A stretch of 61,874 bases of DNA, filler included, from Theionarchaea archaeon (GCA_018992565.1; 3 parts of 3 records of this genome joined end to end with filler, not necessarily neighbours in it), one strand, 5' to 3'; positions 9,001 to 18,000 are shown, counted from the first letter of the whole stretch. Numbers: made by a program.

Positions 9001-12000
9001 GCATTTACGTGGACTTTCCTCACCTCAAAAGCAGAATAATCAGGTCTAATGACTTCAATTTGTTTTTCCTTTTCTTCAATGAGAATTCTCACCAGAAATG
9101 TCTTTTCGTATTCTCTGCCAAACCGATCCTTGTACATTACCCTGATAGACCCTGAATATTCCCCAGGATCCCCATATACTATGATTTCTTTGGATGCCCT
9201 GCTGAGCAAGTAGCCTATGTAGCTTTCATACTGTACTTTAAGGTCTGAAAGAATCTCAAACCTGAAATCAATGGCAACTTCATCTGAATTCTTGAATCCA
9301 ATGATCACCCTGTCACCCAGAACATTAAGAGTGGCAGATTCAAGGCTGATGGATGGTTCTCCATTCTTGATCTTGATAGTGTAGATCTTCTTATCCTCAA
9401 GCGTCTGGCATACACCGCCTTGGCACGTTTTTGAAGTCACCAGGCATGTGTAGGAAATAGTAACCGGATATTCCCCGTCTTCAAGAGATCTACAATGGAA
9501 TGTGAAGGCTGCCGTCTGTGAACCATATGGTAAGCTCTCGATCCGTGCTGACTTGTTATAGAACATGAGATCATTGCTGCTGACCCGGATTTCAATTCCT
9601 TCCGCCATCTGTCCTGAGTTATTGGTGAAGGTTACATTCATCGTTCCTTTATCCTGTGATTCATACACCGGTTTATCTGTGGTTATCTGGAGGGTAAGAA
9701 TGTCATCTGCCAGCACTGGTCCAAGAGATCCCAGAACAAGGATCACCAGAAGGAACCATCTCATGCTGCGTTAATGGGACCCCTGATTTAAAAGACTTGT
9801 GGTCATGAACGAAAGGCCGAATCTGTGCTTTGCCTAGAAGTCAAACAGAGAAGACTGCTTTGAGCAAAAAAAGGAAGGCAGGGTTCTACCGACACTCTGA
9901 CCATGGAAATATCTTTCTGGCCACCCATACAATAAAGGCAGGAACAGCTCCCCCGTGGCCCCCGGCAAGCACTATGGGCCCAATACTGAGAATCTGTTCC
10001 TCTTCTGTCTGCTTGGGAGCAGATTGCGTCTTTTCAGACTGCACTAATATCACCTTTATTCTCTCTTAGTTTTCCTCTTCAGCCGGATTCTCTTCTTCAC
10101 TCGAACCCACTTCTTCTTGGGTCTGACCTTTATGTTGGGTGATTTCCTTAAAGGTCTGCGTTTTCTGTCTTTTCGTGATCCCATAATCCCACATTTTTTA
10201 GAACCATATAAAGGTTATGCAAGTCTTTTTCAATGAATCGAATCAGATTCACCTGATTGCACCCTGATAATAGAGGAGGGTAAAAGCAATTAGAGAAAAT
10301 CTCAAAGAAAGTAAAAAAAATAGTTATAGAAAGCTGCACTATCCGATTCAGCCACCCTACGCGTAGATTTCCATCTTTCCACCAGTGGAAGCAACGCAGG
10401 TAGCGTCCAGGTAGTCTTCAACTCGGGGTTCCATCGTTCTCACCTCCTGTACAGTGATTATACAACATATTTCTTTGAGTTATTAAGCTTTTTGGTGCGT
10501 TCGGAGTATGATGCACCACGTGGGAGGTATTAACCCGAACTCTGTTACGGATAAGGGATAAGCAGAGAGATACGTCAAGGAACGCTCTTTCAAAAAAGAA
10601 ATAAAAGAAAAATATGGTATGTCAGGTCTTGTTCTTTCTACTCCCGGCTTAGAGGTACTCCATCTTTCCACCAGTGGAAGCAACGCAGGTAGCGTCCAGG
10701 TAGTCTTCAACTCGGGGTTCCATCGTTCTCACCTCCTGTACAGTGATTGTTGAGTATATTCTTCTAAGTTATTAAGCTTTTTGGTGGTAATACATGTACA
10801 CATTTAAATAAGAAAAATTTCATTTCTACTCTATAAAATAGAGCAATATTATATTTATCTACACTTCAGAGTCACAGAAGAAAGAACATCATCAATGAAA
10901 TCTCTCTCAGCATAGGTTGATCTCTAGGGGACCACGAATATCTGTGAAGAACCGGTGTATGTTTTTTGGCTCAGGAAAAGCGGTAGTAGGCCCCATCCAC
11001 CCGACATGTGCCTGCTAAAGAGTGTCTGGATGATACAGACAATAGGGATCAGGTTCTTCAAAAGCTCCTCTCACCATATGTGCCGCAGCAATACATCCTC
11101 CACCGCACTCTGTTACATATGTGCACGTCGCACACTTTCCTCCTGTGATCACTGCGTCCCGTGCTCTCTGCAGCAGTGAGGATGTCTCCCACATGCACTT
11201 GAACCCCTCTTTCGCCACAGACTCATCCTGTATCGTGATGTAGGGGCAGGGAGTGATATTCCCTTCTGCAGTTATGGAACAGACCTGGACTCCCGCGGGG
11301 CATCTACGCCCTGCTTGTTCAGAAAAATCAAAAGCTTCTTCAATCTCGTAGTGAAGTCCCTTTTTATCGTATTGACTGCGGTTCCGTGCGTACCCTATGA
11401 TAATGGGGTTCAGTATGGTAGGATCTGGCAAGTGCTCATCGTTCTCCTTCCTGGGTATATATCTGCGAATATGGGCCAGGACTAGTCCCTGCTCATGCGC
11501 CCACTCTGGAAAAGAGGGGGCCTGGTGTATGTTATGGCTCATGGGCATGAATGACACAAAAGCTCGTATCTCAAGGTCTCTCAGCATGGCAAGAGTGTCA
11601 AGCAGTGTATCAAATGATCCAGGGATCCCTGTAATTGCATCATGGGTGTCTGAAGTGATGCCAAACAGAGGAAGGTCAAGTGCACCTAGGTGCGCCTCTC
11701 TGAGGGCTTTTGCCCGGGACTCAGTGAGCAGCAGCCCGTTAGTCTGCACGAGACTCCAGACGGGGCGACCCCTAAGGTGGATTAGAAGCTCCTCCAGCCC
11801 TGAGTAGAGTAGTGGCTCGCCTCCTGTAAAATATATCTTAAATACTCTCTCTTCCACCAATTCATCAAGAATTCTCTTGGCAACCTCTACATCCAGAGAT
11901 ACATTCTCATTCCTTACGAGGCAGTGTGCGCAGTGAAGGTTGCACTTCCGGGTTACCTCCAGGTAGACTGTCAGGGGTGCTCTCATTCTTTTCCCGGAGT

Positions 12001-15000: not shown

Positions 15001-18000
15001 AGGTAAACATAGGTGGGGCTGGAGAACATCATATTACAGCCACCCGATGAGCTTCCGCTCATCCATATCCTTCAAGAAAGCATCCACCTGTTCTCTGACA
15101 TCTTCAAGTTCCTCTCCTTCTTTTTGTGAGAGTGTCTCTGCAATAGTGCTAACATCCATGGTTCCGTCACACATACTCCAGATGAGAAATCCATCTTTGT
15201 TCAGTTTGTGCATCCGTCCTGCCCCGGGATCAAAGATGATAGCTCCAAAATCCTCCTCTCTACAGATCACATCTTCTCGCTGTTTTGGGATCATTCACTC
15301 ACCTTTGGGGGATTTGCAGGTAGAACAAAGTGTAGCATGATGATGGTAGCGACGACCATGGCAGCGCACAGGAAGAAGGGTACGCGCAGGCTGGTGAGTC
15401 CTCCTACGGCAGAGCCCAGTATAGGGCCAACCATAGATCCAATGCTGCAAACGCAGATGACTGCTCCGCTGGCAGTTCCCCTCTGTGATGAGACTGTCAC
15501 ATCACCAATAAGACTGTAAGCAACAGTAGCATATGGGGCAGCTCCTATGCCCACCAGCATGTAGCTGATAAAGAACATGAGGGGATTGACAGACAGGCCC
15601 GCCAAAGACACACCCACTACATAGATGAACAGGGGGTATATCAAGAGGCGCTTTCTCCCTAGCCGGTCTGACATGGTACCTGCCACAAATTGGGAAACAG
15701 CATACAGAATACCCAGTGAGGTGCCCAGGATTCCCAGCATTGTGTACGTCATGCCCAGCTCTTCTACAGCAAATATGCTCATGATGGGAGTGAGAATCCC
15801 ACTGGCGAAGTAAAGCATACCAAACATCAACAGGACTGTAAGGAAGACCAGGTTGCCCACGAGTTCTCTTGTGGGAAGCCTCATTTTCTGAACAGTAAAT
15901 CCTGTCCCCAGTTCTCTGAATTGAACGAGGAAGAAGACTGCCGCTATCATGGGAAAAATTGTACCCACATAGAATAACGGGTTAAAGCTCCCAGTAGAGT
16001 CTCTTATTACACCTCCCACCGTAGGTGCAGCCATGCTGGCCAGCGTCGTGAGCAACGCAAACGTGCCCAGTGCTTGTCCTCTATTCTCCTCTGTGGTCTT
16101 GTCCATTACATATGCGCGCGCAATAGGAAAGATGAATCCTATGATTCCTCCATGTGCTGCCCTCAAGAGCAAGAGCTGTGTTGTGGTGTGGGCCAGGGTA
16201 TACGAGAATACTATCCCTCCCAATAAGAACAAGCTCAGCGTAATGAGGTTTCTGCCAATCCTGTCTGAAATGTATCCTGCAGGCAGGGAAATCAGCGCAT
16301 TAAACAGAGAGTAGACAAGTGCAAAAGCACCCAGTTGCACCACAGGGACACCAAAGTCCTTGAGGAAAAGGTACAGGAATGCGCCGTAGATCTGTTCCCC
16401 AAAGAGCACCAGTGACATGACAATGCTGAACAGCAGAATCAGAGCTTCTACTCGAATCAGATCAGAAAATCTCTTCTTGAGTCTACTTATTCCTTCATCT
16501 ATTATCATAGGTTAACCCTCCGTGTTGTTCAGAAAAAGGAGGAGCAGAACATGGAAGAAATGCGTGCCATAGAGCATCATGACAACGAGGTTGGCATATC
16601 TGCGGAAGAACACGCGTGCGTGAAAGGGGTTGAGATCCATGATATTCCACGTTTCCACCTCCAGTATGTAGTGCTCCTTCACTTCTTCTGCTTTCTTTAT
16701 AAATATTTCGAGCTGCTGAATGTGTGCAGCACAAACTAGATAACCTTCTGTATCTTAACATGTTTTTGAGCAGGCACAAACCCCAGTTCCTTGAGAAGGG
16801 TTCGCTCAGGGAGATTATCTTCCATTACCATGTAGTCCAGAATGTATTCTGCATTCCACTTTCTCATCTCTTGCAGCATTTCAACATACAGAGCAGACCC
16901 AATCCCCATACCTCTGAATTCCTTGAGAACACCGTTGTTCAGGACCCTGCCCACAACCCTGTTCTTATTAAACACCTTCTGAAATGATATAAGAGCTCCA
17001 ATGAAGCCTGCTGGCACCTCCTTCACTTCTGCAAATATCCACACCCCAATCATGTGTCTCTGGCCCTGGTACATGACAGAATCCAGATGTTCCTCATGGA
17101 TTTGAGACATGTTGGGGATTTCAGCGCTGATCTCATTGACCAGAGCAGTATATGTCTTGATATCTTCTCTCAGGTTTTTTGATATACGTAAGTCTACCTT
17201 CTCTTTTGTTTTTTTGTAATAACCAAGCATGAGTTCAGTGATGGGGAGAGATCCTTCTCTGATGAATGTGTCTTCCTTATACAGTTCCTGGTATCCTTTT
17301 TCTTTGAACAGAACGACAAACCGCGAATTGAAATCAGCTATCCGCGTGGTGATCCTGGTAACCCCTTTCTGAGCCAGTACAGTCTCGCATTCCTGCAGCA
17401 GTTCGTCCTCAATTTTCCCACGATATGGTGTGGCAATCCACAAATCCAGCCAGTACGTATCTCCAAGAAAGCAGCTTCTCTTGCCAGGCGCTATTCGAGT
17501 GGTGAATCCTGCCTGGACATTGTCATTCTCTTCCACAACCCAGTAGGTTCTTTCTGTTCCATCGGGTACTGGTTTGTTCATATCGATTTCACTGACAGGT
17601 GCACAGACATCTCCGTGCTCCCACTCTTTCTGGCAGTATTCTGCCCACTGGGGCTGTTCCTGCACACGAAGTCCTCTTACCTCCACTATTTCACCACCTC
17701 CTCCATGTACTCAGTTTCGGGAATTTCAAGTTCCACATGAGCGGAATTCTCTGGAATGTCATATTCATCCAGGAAGAAGGCAAACAGAAGGATATCCTTG
17801 CCATCAACAGTATGTTTTCTCAGACAGCCCTCATACGTATAACCAAGGAAATTCAAAAGAGATACCATCATGGGGTTCCTACCAATAACAGAATCAGTGA
17901 CTTTATTCCTACCTTCTGCCTTAAACACCTTTAGAGCTGCAATATACAAATTGGTACCTATTTCATGCCCTCTACATTCTCTATCAACCACAATGACCCC

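What a model noticed while it worked through the whole genome (the two positions that open the first line are those of the whole stretch)
10357..16508. Nine-copy unannotated 24-27-aa peptide family tied to a four-radical-SAM / RRE / MFS cluster
Nine paralogous small genes encode peptides with a conserved head (M-x-P-R-V-E-D-Y-x-D-x-T-C-V-A-S-T-G-G) and a hypervariable 5-9-residue tail that always contains Met. They lie at C119:10357-10434 and 10649-10723; C47:5864-5947, 6293-6367, 6709-6783 and 7035-7112; C143:3710-3784; C33:709-792; C79:8032-8115. They are the likely substrates of the adjoining cluster of four SPASM radical-SAM genes, a PqqD-like RRE and an MFS exporter (C119:11015-16508). 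This is a new RiPP-type precursor family that gene callers have missed.
Evidence so far: - Every copy has a TATA-like box, a GGAGGTG site before the ATG, a synonymous-only pattern in 9 head codons, and a T-rich end. - The order MFS-RRE-rSAMx4-peptide is conserved in G002 at 64-68% identity. - Pattern search of 41 genomes: only G000 (9) and G002 (7, plus 1 more); controls 0. G001 lacks both the peptides and the cluster orthologue. - Among 185,579 species genomes, only G002's assembly matched. - Metagenomes gave 57 loci and 40 distinct peptides; 11 of 57 loci hold cluster orthologues. - Met in the tail in 56 of 56 distinct peptides. - 0 of 6 exact sequences are in the 15-billion-protein collection. 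No NCBIfam hit. The motif strings are in no paper. - C119_17 is closest to PqqE and [...]
(Added by a program. Inside this text positions count along the whole contig: they may not be those of the stretch shown here. "Call 12" and the like, gene names such as g00115 and contig names such as C1 are that model's own, and its searches are not shown. The text may have been shortened before it was handed on; [...] marks where a part breaks off. The agent that wrote the report below was given it as the finding of a first reader that could run no searches.)

Follow-up and report, generated by a model that had tools for sequence, protein, structure and literature searches.

The report
Archaeal small-peptide family with radical-SAM cluster
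An uncultured sediment archaeon carries nine tiny genes for closely related 24-27-residue peptides, two of them beside a conserved set of peptide-modifying enzymes, which most likely form an uncharacterised pathway for a modified peptide product.

Summary
All nine small genes exist at the stated places. They behave as coding genes. In ten fixed head codons, 27 distinct copies show 1507 synonymous against 78 non-synonymous pairwise codon differences. GAGGTG lies 9-14 nt before the ATG in 27 of 27 copies.

The link to the enzymes survives a test that starts from the enzyme. Seven of eight metagenome loci holding an orthologue of the first radical-SAM gene also hold family peptides. Peptides and enzyme orthologue occur in the same 2 of 41 related genomes.

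- The conserved module also includes two GNAT acetyltransferases.
- The family is not wholly missed by gene callers. A profile search found 34 unnamed relatives.
- Met follows the Cys in 55 of 57 distinct peptides, at Cys+8 in 32.
- The odd CX2CX3C triad of one enzyme is conserved in 18 of 19 orthologues.

No curated family fits. I read it as a new RRE-dependent radical-SAM RiPP family. The chemistry is unknown. A Cys-to-Met thioether, as in SKF, is my lead guess.

The parts
10357..10434 (-). Peptide gene copy 1, 25 aa (MEPRVEDYLDATCVASTGGKMEIYA). GGAGGTG lies at 10441-10447 and a CTTAATAA box at 10480-10487. A run of eight T follows the stop.
10649..10723 (-). Peptide gene copy 2, 24 aa (MEPRVEDYLDATCVASTGGKMEYL). 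GGAGGTG lies at 10730-10736 and a CTTAATAA box at 10769-10776. Its DNA is identical to copy 1 from -27 to codon 22 and unrelated after that.
11015..12043 (-). Radical-SAM/SPASM enzyme D. It has CX3CX2C at residues 34-41 and a CX2CX5CX3C pattern at 304-317. The real start is probably an inner Met.
   Evidence: orthologues 56-60% in 6 loci
12019..13119 (-). Radical-SAM/SPASM enzyme C. It has CX3CX2C at residues 51-58. The real start is probably near 13032. The closest solved chains are PqqE and SkfB.
   Evidence: 63-69%
13019..14014 (-). Radical-SAM/SPASM enzyme B, with CX3CX2C at residues 17-24.
   Evidence: 58-61%
14061..15062 (-). Radical-SAM/SPASM enzyme A. It carries a permuted CX2CX3C triad (C27, C30, C34) and an intact GGEP motif. 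The start is probably at 15032.
15034..15294 (-). Free-standing PqqD-family peptide-binding protein (RRE), 86 aa.
15291..16508 (-). MFS transporter, 405 aa. Export is presumed; the direction of transport is not shown.
   Evidence: 53-64% in 5 loci
16736..17686 (-). Tandem-GNAT acyltransferase, 316 aa.
17686..18213 (-). Single-domain GNAT, 175 aa. It is the best-conserved gene of the module (79-83% identity).

Best explanation
The nine small genes are real, independently transcribed genes. They encode precursors of a ribosomally made, post-translationally modified peptide (RiPP).

**Proposed steps (all inferred, none shown).**
1. The free PqqD-type protein binds the conserved N-terminal head (PxVEDYxD...).
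2. It hands the peptide to four paralogous radical-SAM/SPASM enzymes. Each abstracts a hydrogen atom and installs one cross-link or similar change.
3. One or both GNATs may acylate the product, or protect the producer.
4. The MFS protein exports the product.

**Where the changes fall.** The head is invariant up to the tail and is rich in reactive residues (D, Y, D, T, C, S). I therefore place most modifications on those residues and on the near-invariant Met, not in the variable tail.

**Lead guess for one step.** A thioether from Cys13 to Met21 (i, i+8). This spacing and residue pair match SKF, where SkfB links Cys4 to the alpha-carbon of Met12.

**Role of the tails.** The variable tails, spread over nine loci, would give a set of product variants from one enzyme set.
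For: **The genes are coding.**
- Ten fixed head codons show 1507 synonymous against 78 non-synonymous pairwise codon differences among 27 distinct DNA copies.
- GAGGTG lies at -9 to -14 in 27 of 27 copies, and T-runs follow the stop in 27 of 27.

**Link to the enzymes, found starting from the enzyme.**
- Enzyme A has 21 homologue clusters at 64-99% identity (the 99% one is the window's own), then a gap to 26%.
- Of 8 metagenome loci with an orthologue at 64-70%, 7 hold 1-3 family peptides. The eighth is a 1.76-kb fragment. L020/L021 and L024/L025 are near-duplicate pairs.
- My loose peptide pattern hits 14 times in 124,023 bases of orthologous loci, against 6 times in 981,681 bases of 103 control loci.
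- Peptides and enzyme orthologue share the same 2 of 41 related genomes.

**The module is discrete.** Both GNATs, the MFS, the RRE and the four enzymes are conserved at 48-83% identity. Flanking genes are not conserved.

**Predicted RRE-peptide complex.** Verdict weak support: score 0.58, best of 3 controls 0.08. The mark was reached by 116 of 157 solved complexes and 2 of 215 mismatched pairs. At 0.60 or under it was reached by only 18 of those 157 solved ones and by both passing mismatches. Runs agree in at least 89% of contacts, and partner pLDDT is at least 51. Solved RRE-leader complexes exist, so this may be likeness from memory.

**Met.** It follows the Cys in 55 of 57 distinct peptides, at Cys+8 in 32 and at +11 or +12 in 17.

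**SKF precedent.** The Cys4 to Met12 thioether is stated in passages of PMC6231123 and PMC8172795. SkfB is the second-best solved match of enzyme C.

**Tails are not junk.** The KMLY tail recurs in two loci with synonymous differences.
Against: - No mass, binding or transcript data exist, and no RNA run was listed.
- Seven of the nine G000 copies are not beside the enzymes, and the flanks of unlinked copies in G000 and G002 are not syntenic.
- No protease is in the conserved module.
- No sactisynthase model reaches its cut-off. The enzymes score best with AhbD, NirJ and MftC models.
- The peptide has only one Cys, so at most one thioether is possible. Three enzymes are left without a proposed reaction.
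- In 23 of 55 peptides the Met is not at +8.
- Enzyme A lacks the canonical triad and might be inactive.
- The family was partly defined by my own pattern, which inflates head conservation.
- Related genomes are not independent samples.
Confidence: 0.7

Rival explanations
1. The peptide is a sacrificial scaffold for a small molecule or cofactor, as PqqA is for PQQ and MftA for mycofactocin. The product would be built from invariant head residues, or from the Met, and then cut out. The tails would be mostly unimportant.
For: - The enzymes score highest with the MftC, PqqE, AhbD and NirJ group, and the chaperone is PqqD-like.
- The invariant residues sit in the head.
- Both GNATs weakly resemble N-acetyltransferases that detoxify amino-acid analogues (E 1e-4 to 1e-7, far below cut-offs).
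Against: - PqqE and MftC models miss their cut-offs (146 against 381 bits; 190 against 265 bits).
- There is no E-x3-Y motif and no C-terminal GVY.
- No peptidase or further tailoring genes are in the module.
- Nine copies with distinct tails, and tail types kept across genomes, are hard to explain if tails are waste.
- The system is present in only 2 of 41 relatives.
Confidence: 0.13
2. The peptides are real small proteins, but the neighbouring enzymes act on something else. Adjacency would be a lineage accident, or another enzyme would be the true maturase, for example the RRE-fused radical-SAM gene 2.5 kb from the C47 array.
For: - Most G000 copies are unlinked to the cluster.
- The genome holds at least 14 related radical-SAM/SPASM genes.
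- The C47 enzyme scores best with AlbA and SkfB models (134 and 130 bits, below cut-offs).
Against: - 7 of 8 orthologous loci in differing genomic contexts keep peptides at the module's edges, and once inside it.
- Co-occurrence with the enzyme orthologue is exact in 41 genomes.
- The C47 enzyme has no orthologue in G001-G003 (best 32%), although G002 has 8 peptides.
Confidence: 0.08
3. The repeats are not translated. They would be a repeated regulatory or RNA element whose reading frame is incidental.
For: No expression data are available. The elements are short, repeated and flanked by T-runs.
Against: - Substitutions concentrate at third codon positions (12 of 12 vary, against 4 and 3).
- The two other frames give 25 different strings for 27 copies, against 15 in frame.
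- A ribosome-binding site sits at fixed distance in 27 of 27 copies.
Confidence: 0.02

Closest known systems
Sporulation killing factor system (SkfA/SkfB), a sactipeptide
   Same: - A radical-SAM enzyme links a Cys sulfur to the alpha-carbon of a Met eight residues downstream (Cys4-Met12; passages of PMC6231123 and PMC8172795). Here Met lies at Cys+8 in 32 of 55 peptides.
- SkfB is the second-best solved sequence match of enzyme C (E 8.8e-25).
   Different: - SkfB has a fused RRE and a Twitch domain. Here the RRE is free and the SPASM patterns are full.
- The SkfB model scores 98-99 bits against a cut-off of 300.
- SKF is a bacterial, head-to-tail cyclised 26-mer with its own protease and ABC transporter.
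- No thioether has been shown here.
PqqA/PqqD/PqqE and MftA/MftB/MftC (peptide-derived cofactors)
   Same: A very short precursor of about 25 aa, a free PqqD-family chaperone, and SPASM radical-SAM enzymes of the same broad branch.
   Different: - All equivalog cut-offs are missed.
- The precursor motifs are absent.
- There are four enzymes instead of one, nine precursor genes with variable tails, and an MFS plus GNATs in place of PqqB/C/F or MftD/E/F.
SynChlorMet cassette (ScmD/ScmE/ScmF) and GeoRSP system (NCBIfam names)
   Same: Multi-enzyme cassettes with a free PqqD relative and more than one SPASM radical-SAM protein. ScmD is the best NCBIfam match of the RRE.
   Different: Scores are far below cut-offs: ScmD 38.5 against 100, ScmE/F up to 119 against 400, GeoRSP up to 182 against 400. 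What is known about those cassettes' substrates is recalled by me, not tested here.
CrpA/CrpC of Methanococcus voltae (PMC13692751, abstract read)
   Same: An archaeal SPASM radical-SAM enzyme that installs thioether cross-links on a gene-adjacent substrate.
   Different: The Crp substrate is a cysteine-rich protein and the enzyme has its own RRE. Here the substrate is a 24-27-aa peptide with a single Cys, served by four enzymes.

Membership tests
RRE-dependent radical-SAM/SPASM RiPP pathway (general kind) | A short precursor gene next to the maturase genes, conserved across loci | tested here: met
   7 of 8 orthologous metagenome loci, plus G002 and the window, hold family peptides at the module.
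RRE-dependent radical-SAM/SPASM RiPP pathway (general kind) | A PqqD-like RiPP recognition element | tested here: met
   PF05402 scores 52.9 bits against a cut-off of 23.4. The protein is conserved at 61-68% identity in 7 loci.
RRE-dependent radical-SAM/SPASM RiPP pathway (general kind) | Radical-SAM core with CX3CX2C, plus SPASM cysteines | tested here: met
   Enzymes B, C and D have CX3CX2C. Pfam SPASM is above cut-off in A, B and C, and D shows the cysteine pattern by eye. Enzyme A has CX2CX3C instead, so it fails this feature on its own.
RRE-dependent radical-SAM/SPASM RiPP pathway (general kind) | The peptide is bound by the RRE and chemically modified | not testable with these tools
   There is only a predicted complex, with verdict weak support: score 0.58 against best control 0.08.
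Sactipeptides | The maturase belongs to a known sactisynthase family (AlbA, SkfB, StsB models) | tested here: not met
   Best scores for the four cluster enzymes are StsB 126 against 625, SkfB 99 against 300 and AlbA 80 against 850. The abstract of PMC10288494 says full-length similarity can mislead for this class.
Sactipeptides | A Cys sulfur to alpha-carbon thioether | not testable with these tools
   Only the Cys...Met spacing is seen.
PQQ biosynthesis | PqqE equivalog, the PqqA E-x3-Y motif, and pqqB/C genes | tested here: not met
   TIGR02109 scores at most 146 bits against 381. The head has E-D-Y, not E-x3-Y. No such genes are in the conserved module. The PqqA motif is recalled by me.
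Mycofactocin | MftC equivalog and a C-terminal Gly-Val-Tyr in the precursor | tested here: not met
   TIGR03962 scores at most 190 bits against 265. None of the 27 aligned tails ends in GVY. The MftA motif is recalled by me.
Double-glycine leader peptides with a C39-peptidase ABC exporter | A GG cleavage site together with a peptidase-ABC transporter in the cluster | tested here: not met
   GG, GS, GA or AG precedes the tail in most peptides, but L022 has TV, TM and MV. The module has an MFS and no peptidase or ABC gene.

The most novel reading that the evidence does not exclude
The conserved 'head' is itself the core. Four paralogous archaeal radical-SAM enzymes, one using a permuted CX2CX3C cluster triad, would weld the invariant Tyr, Asp, Thr and Cys and the obligatory Met into a compact polycyclic scaffold that includes a Cys-to-Met thioether. 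Nine dispersed genes would supply different tails. That would be the first multi-radical-SAM RiPP library from Archaea, and it would probably involve at least one cross-link type not yet described.
Probability: 0.2. Interest if true: 0.8.

Novelty: new member of a known kind. Interest (0 to 1): 0.6.

Why it matters
- **Archaeal RiPPs are scarce.** In my searches the nearest archaeal precedent was a 2026 paper on a thioether-forming SPASM enzyme that acts on a protein.
- **A ready target for reconstitution.** This is a compact, well-delimited gene set: precursor, chaperone, four enzymes, two acyltransferases and a transporter. It has a clear set of invariant target residues.
- **Open questions it raises.** What do four paralogous radical-SAM enzymes do to a 25-residue peptide with one Cys? 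Does a CX2CX3C triad support radical-SAM chemistry? Why is a Met obligatory?
- **Lesson for annotation.** Genes of 24-27 codons are called only now and then and are left unnamed.

Tried and rejected
- **Expression.** No RNA holder was listed for window:10300-10900. 20 listed runs from 6 studies hold the DNA. I did not lay reads.
- **Peptide families.** NCBIfam gave 0 families for the two window peptides.
- **Literature.** Motif strings (TCVAST, EDYLDATC, VEDYLD, CVASTGG, DSTCVAS) gave 3 unrelated papers. 'Theionarchaea' or 'Methanofastidiosa' with 'radical SAM' gave 2 and 6 papers, none on this system judging by the listings. A general archaea/RiPP/SPASM search listed 25 of 93 papers.
- **Precord et al. 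2023 compendium.** The one supplement file held as text had 0 hits for Theionarchaea, archaeon or Thermococci. Accession lists I could not see may still include these enzymes.
- **Synteny of unlinked copies.** No shared flanking genes between G000 and G002 within about 1.5 kb.
- **C47 RRE-fused enzyme as a conserved partner.** Rejected, because it has no orthologue in G001-G003. No other small precursor was evident beside it.
- **Catalytic-site-proximity profiling.** The text of section 7 of PMC10288494 gives no residue identities that I could apply.
- **Fold of enzyme A.** Mean pLDDT was 70.7 and the SPASM part was poor. The matches (SuiB, PqqE, BlsE, SkfB, anSME) place it only in the SPASM/Twitch group.

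
Full report
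**What is in the sequence**

Positions 1-23295 of the window are one contig (C119) of a 2.8-Mb, 154-contig assembly. The rest of the window is other contigs separated by N runs.

On the minus strand, 10357-10434 and 10649-10723 encode MEPRVEDYLDATCVASTGGKMEIYA and MEPRVEDYLDATCVASTGGKMEYL. Seven more copies lie on contigs C47 (four within 1.3 kb), C143, C33 and C79.

Each gene has its own signals:
- GGAGGTG lies a few bases before the ATG in 8 of 9 copies; one copy has AGAGGTG.
- An A/T-rich box of the AAAGCTTAATAA or AAGTTTATA type lies about 50 nt upstream.
- T-runs follow the stop.

**Are they genes?**

I collected 27 distinct members: 9 from this genome, 8 from the one related genome that has them (G002), and 10 from metagenome loci.

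- In the 12-codon block VEDYxDxTCVAS, every third position varies. Only 4 first and 3 second positions vary.
- In the ten fixed codons there are 1507 synonymous and 78 non-synonymous pairwise codon differences.
- The two other frames give 25 different strings for 27 copies, against 15 in frame.
- GAGGTG lies 9-14 nt before the start in 27 of 27 copies. T-runs follow in 27 of 27. A loosely defined TATA-like 8-mer is present in 25 of 27 (no control for the last).

Caveat: my collecting pattern demands part of the head, so amino-acid conservation is partly imposed. The codon-position bias is not imposed.

**The neighbouring genes**

Upstream on the same strand lie these genes:
- an MFS transporter (15291-16508);
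- an 86-aa PqqD-family protein (15034-15294);
- four radical-SAM genes: A 14061-15062, B 13019-14014, C 12019-13119 and D 11015-12043.

B, C and D have CX3CX2C. A has C27-x2-C30-x3-C34 and an intact GGEP motif. Pfam finds SPASM in A, B and C. D shows the CX2CX5CX3C pattern by eye.

No NCBIfam model reaches its cut-off. The best matches are AhbD, NirJ, MftC, GeoRSP and PqqE. PqqE and SkfB are the closest solved sequences for C. The four enzymes are each other's nearest relatives in the genome, at 28-32% identity.

**Is the link real? A test that starts from the enzyme**

Enzyme A has 21 database homologue clusters at 64-99% identity (the 99% one is the window's own), then nothing until 26%. Two of them are named 'Theionarchaea archaeon' by their source. 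The permuted triad is kept in 18 of the 19 aligned sequences that cover it; P0015 has Tyr at the third Cys.

Using that alignment I scanned metagenomes and species genomes.
- Eight metagenome loci (L019-L026) and one genome locus (L089, titled 'uncultured Thermococci archaeon', which is G002) have orthologues at 64-70%.
- The other 103 loci have 23-35% relatives and served as controls.

A loose peptide pattern ([DE][YFW]x[DE]x[TS]C, then 2-25 residues and a stop) hit 14 times in 124,023 bases of the orthologous loci. It hit 6 times in 981,681 control bases.

Seven of the eight metagenome loci hold one to three family peptides. The exception is a 1.76-kb fragment. L020/L021 and L024/L025 are near-duplicates. 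Counting the window and G002, that makes about seven independent clusters. The peptides sit just after enzyme D, just before the first GNAT or the MFS, and once between A and B (L022).

Among 41 related genomes, the peptide pattern occurs only in G000 (9) and G002 (8), with reversed-pattern controls at 0. The enzyme A orthologue occurs in the same two; the next best match is 29%. Across one genome per species, only the G002 assembly matched, plus two chance hits inside bacterial sequence with no small-gene structure.

**The module is larger than reported**

An all-against-all comparison shows that two GNAT genes are conserved with the rest in 4 of the 5 loci that extend that far:
- a 175-aa GNAT (17686-18213), at 79-83% identity the best-kept gene of all;
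- a 316-aa tandem GNAT (16736-17686), at 48-55% identity.

Nothing beyond them is conserved. This is therefore a discrete cassette sitting in different contexts.

The tandem GNAT model (pLDDT 85.7) is closest to the tandem GNAT of the clavulanic acid pathway, to a glucosamine N-acetyltransferase and to MshD. L022 is the one locus without GNATs. Its three peptides are also the only cluster-adjacent ones besides G002's that lack Lys before the Met. That is one event only, so it is a lead and not a finding.

**The peptide family more widely**

None of 10 exact peptides is in the 15-billion-protein collection. A profile of the 27 peptides found 35 representatives at E of 0.001 or less. I fetched 34 of them. 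I left out P0060, an 879-aa protein that matches only profile positions 3-11.

The 34 are family members of 23-116 aa. Several carry false upstream starts. One is a 66-aa reading of this genome's C33 copy. Of the 11 cluster members I looked up, one carries a name, 'hypothetical protein'. The family is therefore unnamed and poorly called, but not unseen.

In the pooled 57 distinct peptides, Met follows the Cys within 8-15 residues in 55.
- The offsets are +8 in 32 peptides and +11 or +12 in 17.
- Usually 2-5 residues follow the Met, and once none.
- The two exceptions are aberrantly long (58 and 72 aa) and look like frameshifted or read-through forms.

Tail types recur between genomes. KMLY appears in two loci with synonymous differences. 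VMREA and the AGAG(A/G)LAMAP forms also recur. The tails are therefore not simply drifting.

The two window copies are identical in DNA from -27 to codon 22 and in the promoter box. They differ in between and are unrelated after codon 22. This suggests conversion of the head or rapid turnover of the tail.

**How it most likely works**

What is shown is gene structure, conservation, adjacency and co-occurrence. Everything below is inferred.

The PqqD protein binds the head and presents the peptide to the four enzymes. A predicted complex of the RRE alignment with the peptide alignment gave the verdict weak support:
- The score was 0.58, and the best of 3 controls was 0.08.
- The mark was reached by 116 of 157 solved complexes and 2 of 215 mismatched pairs.
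- At 0.60 or under, it was reached by only 18 of those 157 solved ones and by both mismatches that passed.
- The runs agree in at least 89% of contacts, and the partner's pLDDT is at least 51.

RRE-leader complexes have been solved, so this may reflect likeness only. The first row of the peptide alignment was a 41-aa in-frame reading, not the 27-aa peptide.

Four conserved enzymes need four targets. The tail offers only Met, so I place the chemistry mainly on the invariant D, Y, D, T, C, S residues and the Met.

For one step there is a precedent. SkfB joins Cys4 to the alpha-carbon of Met12 in SKF (passages read in PMC6231123 and PMC8172795). That is the same residue pair and the same i, i+8 spacing as in most family members. 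I rate this step at about one in three.

The sactisynthase models do not reach their cut-offs. However, the abstract of PMC10288494 reports an MftC-like enzyme that makes sactionine bonds, so overall similarity is a poor guide here.

Acylation by the GNATs, export by the MFS and proteolytic release are guesses. No protease is in the module.

**Rivals**

- **Scaffold or cofactor reading (PQQ- or mycofactocin-like).** It fits the enzyme branch and the invariant head. It does not fit the nine varied, partly conserved tails, the missing accessory genes or the failed equivalog tests.
- **Chance neighbourhood.** Seven independent loci and exact co-occurrence argue against it.
- **Non-coding reading.** The codon pattern and the ribosome site exclude it.

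**Novelty**

My searches found no paper with the motif strings and none on radical-SAM peptides in this lineage. The closest archaeal case acts on a cysteine-rich protein (abstract of PMC13692751).

The logic of precursor, RRE and SPASM radical-SAM enzymes is well known. This is a new family within it, from an uncultured archaeon. Near-identical DNA to this stretch turns up in 20 sequencing runs of 6 studies labelled marine sediment, estuary, mangrove and soil metagenomes.

Noticed in passing
L073:53-154, L108:19-168, L128:1007-1102 (all +); L123:10834-10896: A different small-peptide family ends in EF[IV]ELSCMCDN (L123: EEFIENSCGSDM). It lies directly beside radical-SAM/SPASM genes that are about 26-28% identical to enzyme A. 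L108, L123 and L128 are titled Bdellovibrionota, Parcubacteria and Dojkabacteria MAGs; L073 is an untitled metagenome contig. It shares the [ED][FY]x[ED]x[ST]C motif with the archaeal family, but my pattern selected for that motif. NCBIfam has no hit for it.
   Followed up: partly
G000:C47:9604-11025 (+), = L131: An RRE-fused radical-SAM/SPASM gene of 473 aa lies 2.5 kb from the four-peptide array on C47. Its best NCBIfam matches are AlbA and SkfB, both below cut-off. It has no orthologue in G001-G003 (best 32%), and no other small precursor was evident beside it.
   Followed up: partly
G000 contigs C4, C24, C28, C49, C110, C133, C147: The genome holds at least 14-18 further radical-SAM/SPASM paralogues, several in pairs or triplets. 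G001 and G002 hold 8-17. The lineage looks unusually rich in such clusters.
   Followed up: no
window 10357-10850: The two window copies have identical DNA in the promoter box and from -27 to codon 22. They differ in the spacer between those two stretches and are unrelated after codon 22. This is a mosaic that suggests gene conversion of the head or cassette-like turnover of tails.
   Followed up: partly
L022:8031-14866: One metagenome cluster lacks both GNAT genes and has a peptide gene between enzymes A and B. Its three peptides have STV-R, STM-I or SMV-Y before the Met, instead of GG-K.
   Followed up: partly
G000:C79:5309-7854: The C79 copy lies just after an MBL-fold gene and 1.2 kb from a 504-aa protein with C13/C14 (legumain/caspase-like) peptidase domains. 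It is an untested candidate for the missing protease.
   Followed up: no
window 23296-23395, 46520-46619, 60578-60677: N runs split the window into separate contigs. Only positions 1-23295 belong to the contig that holds the finding.
   Followed up: yes
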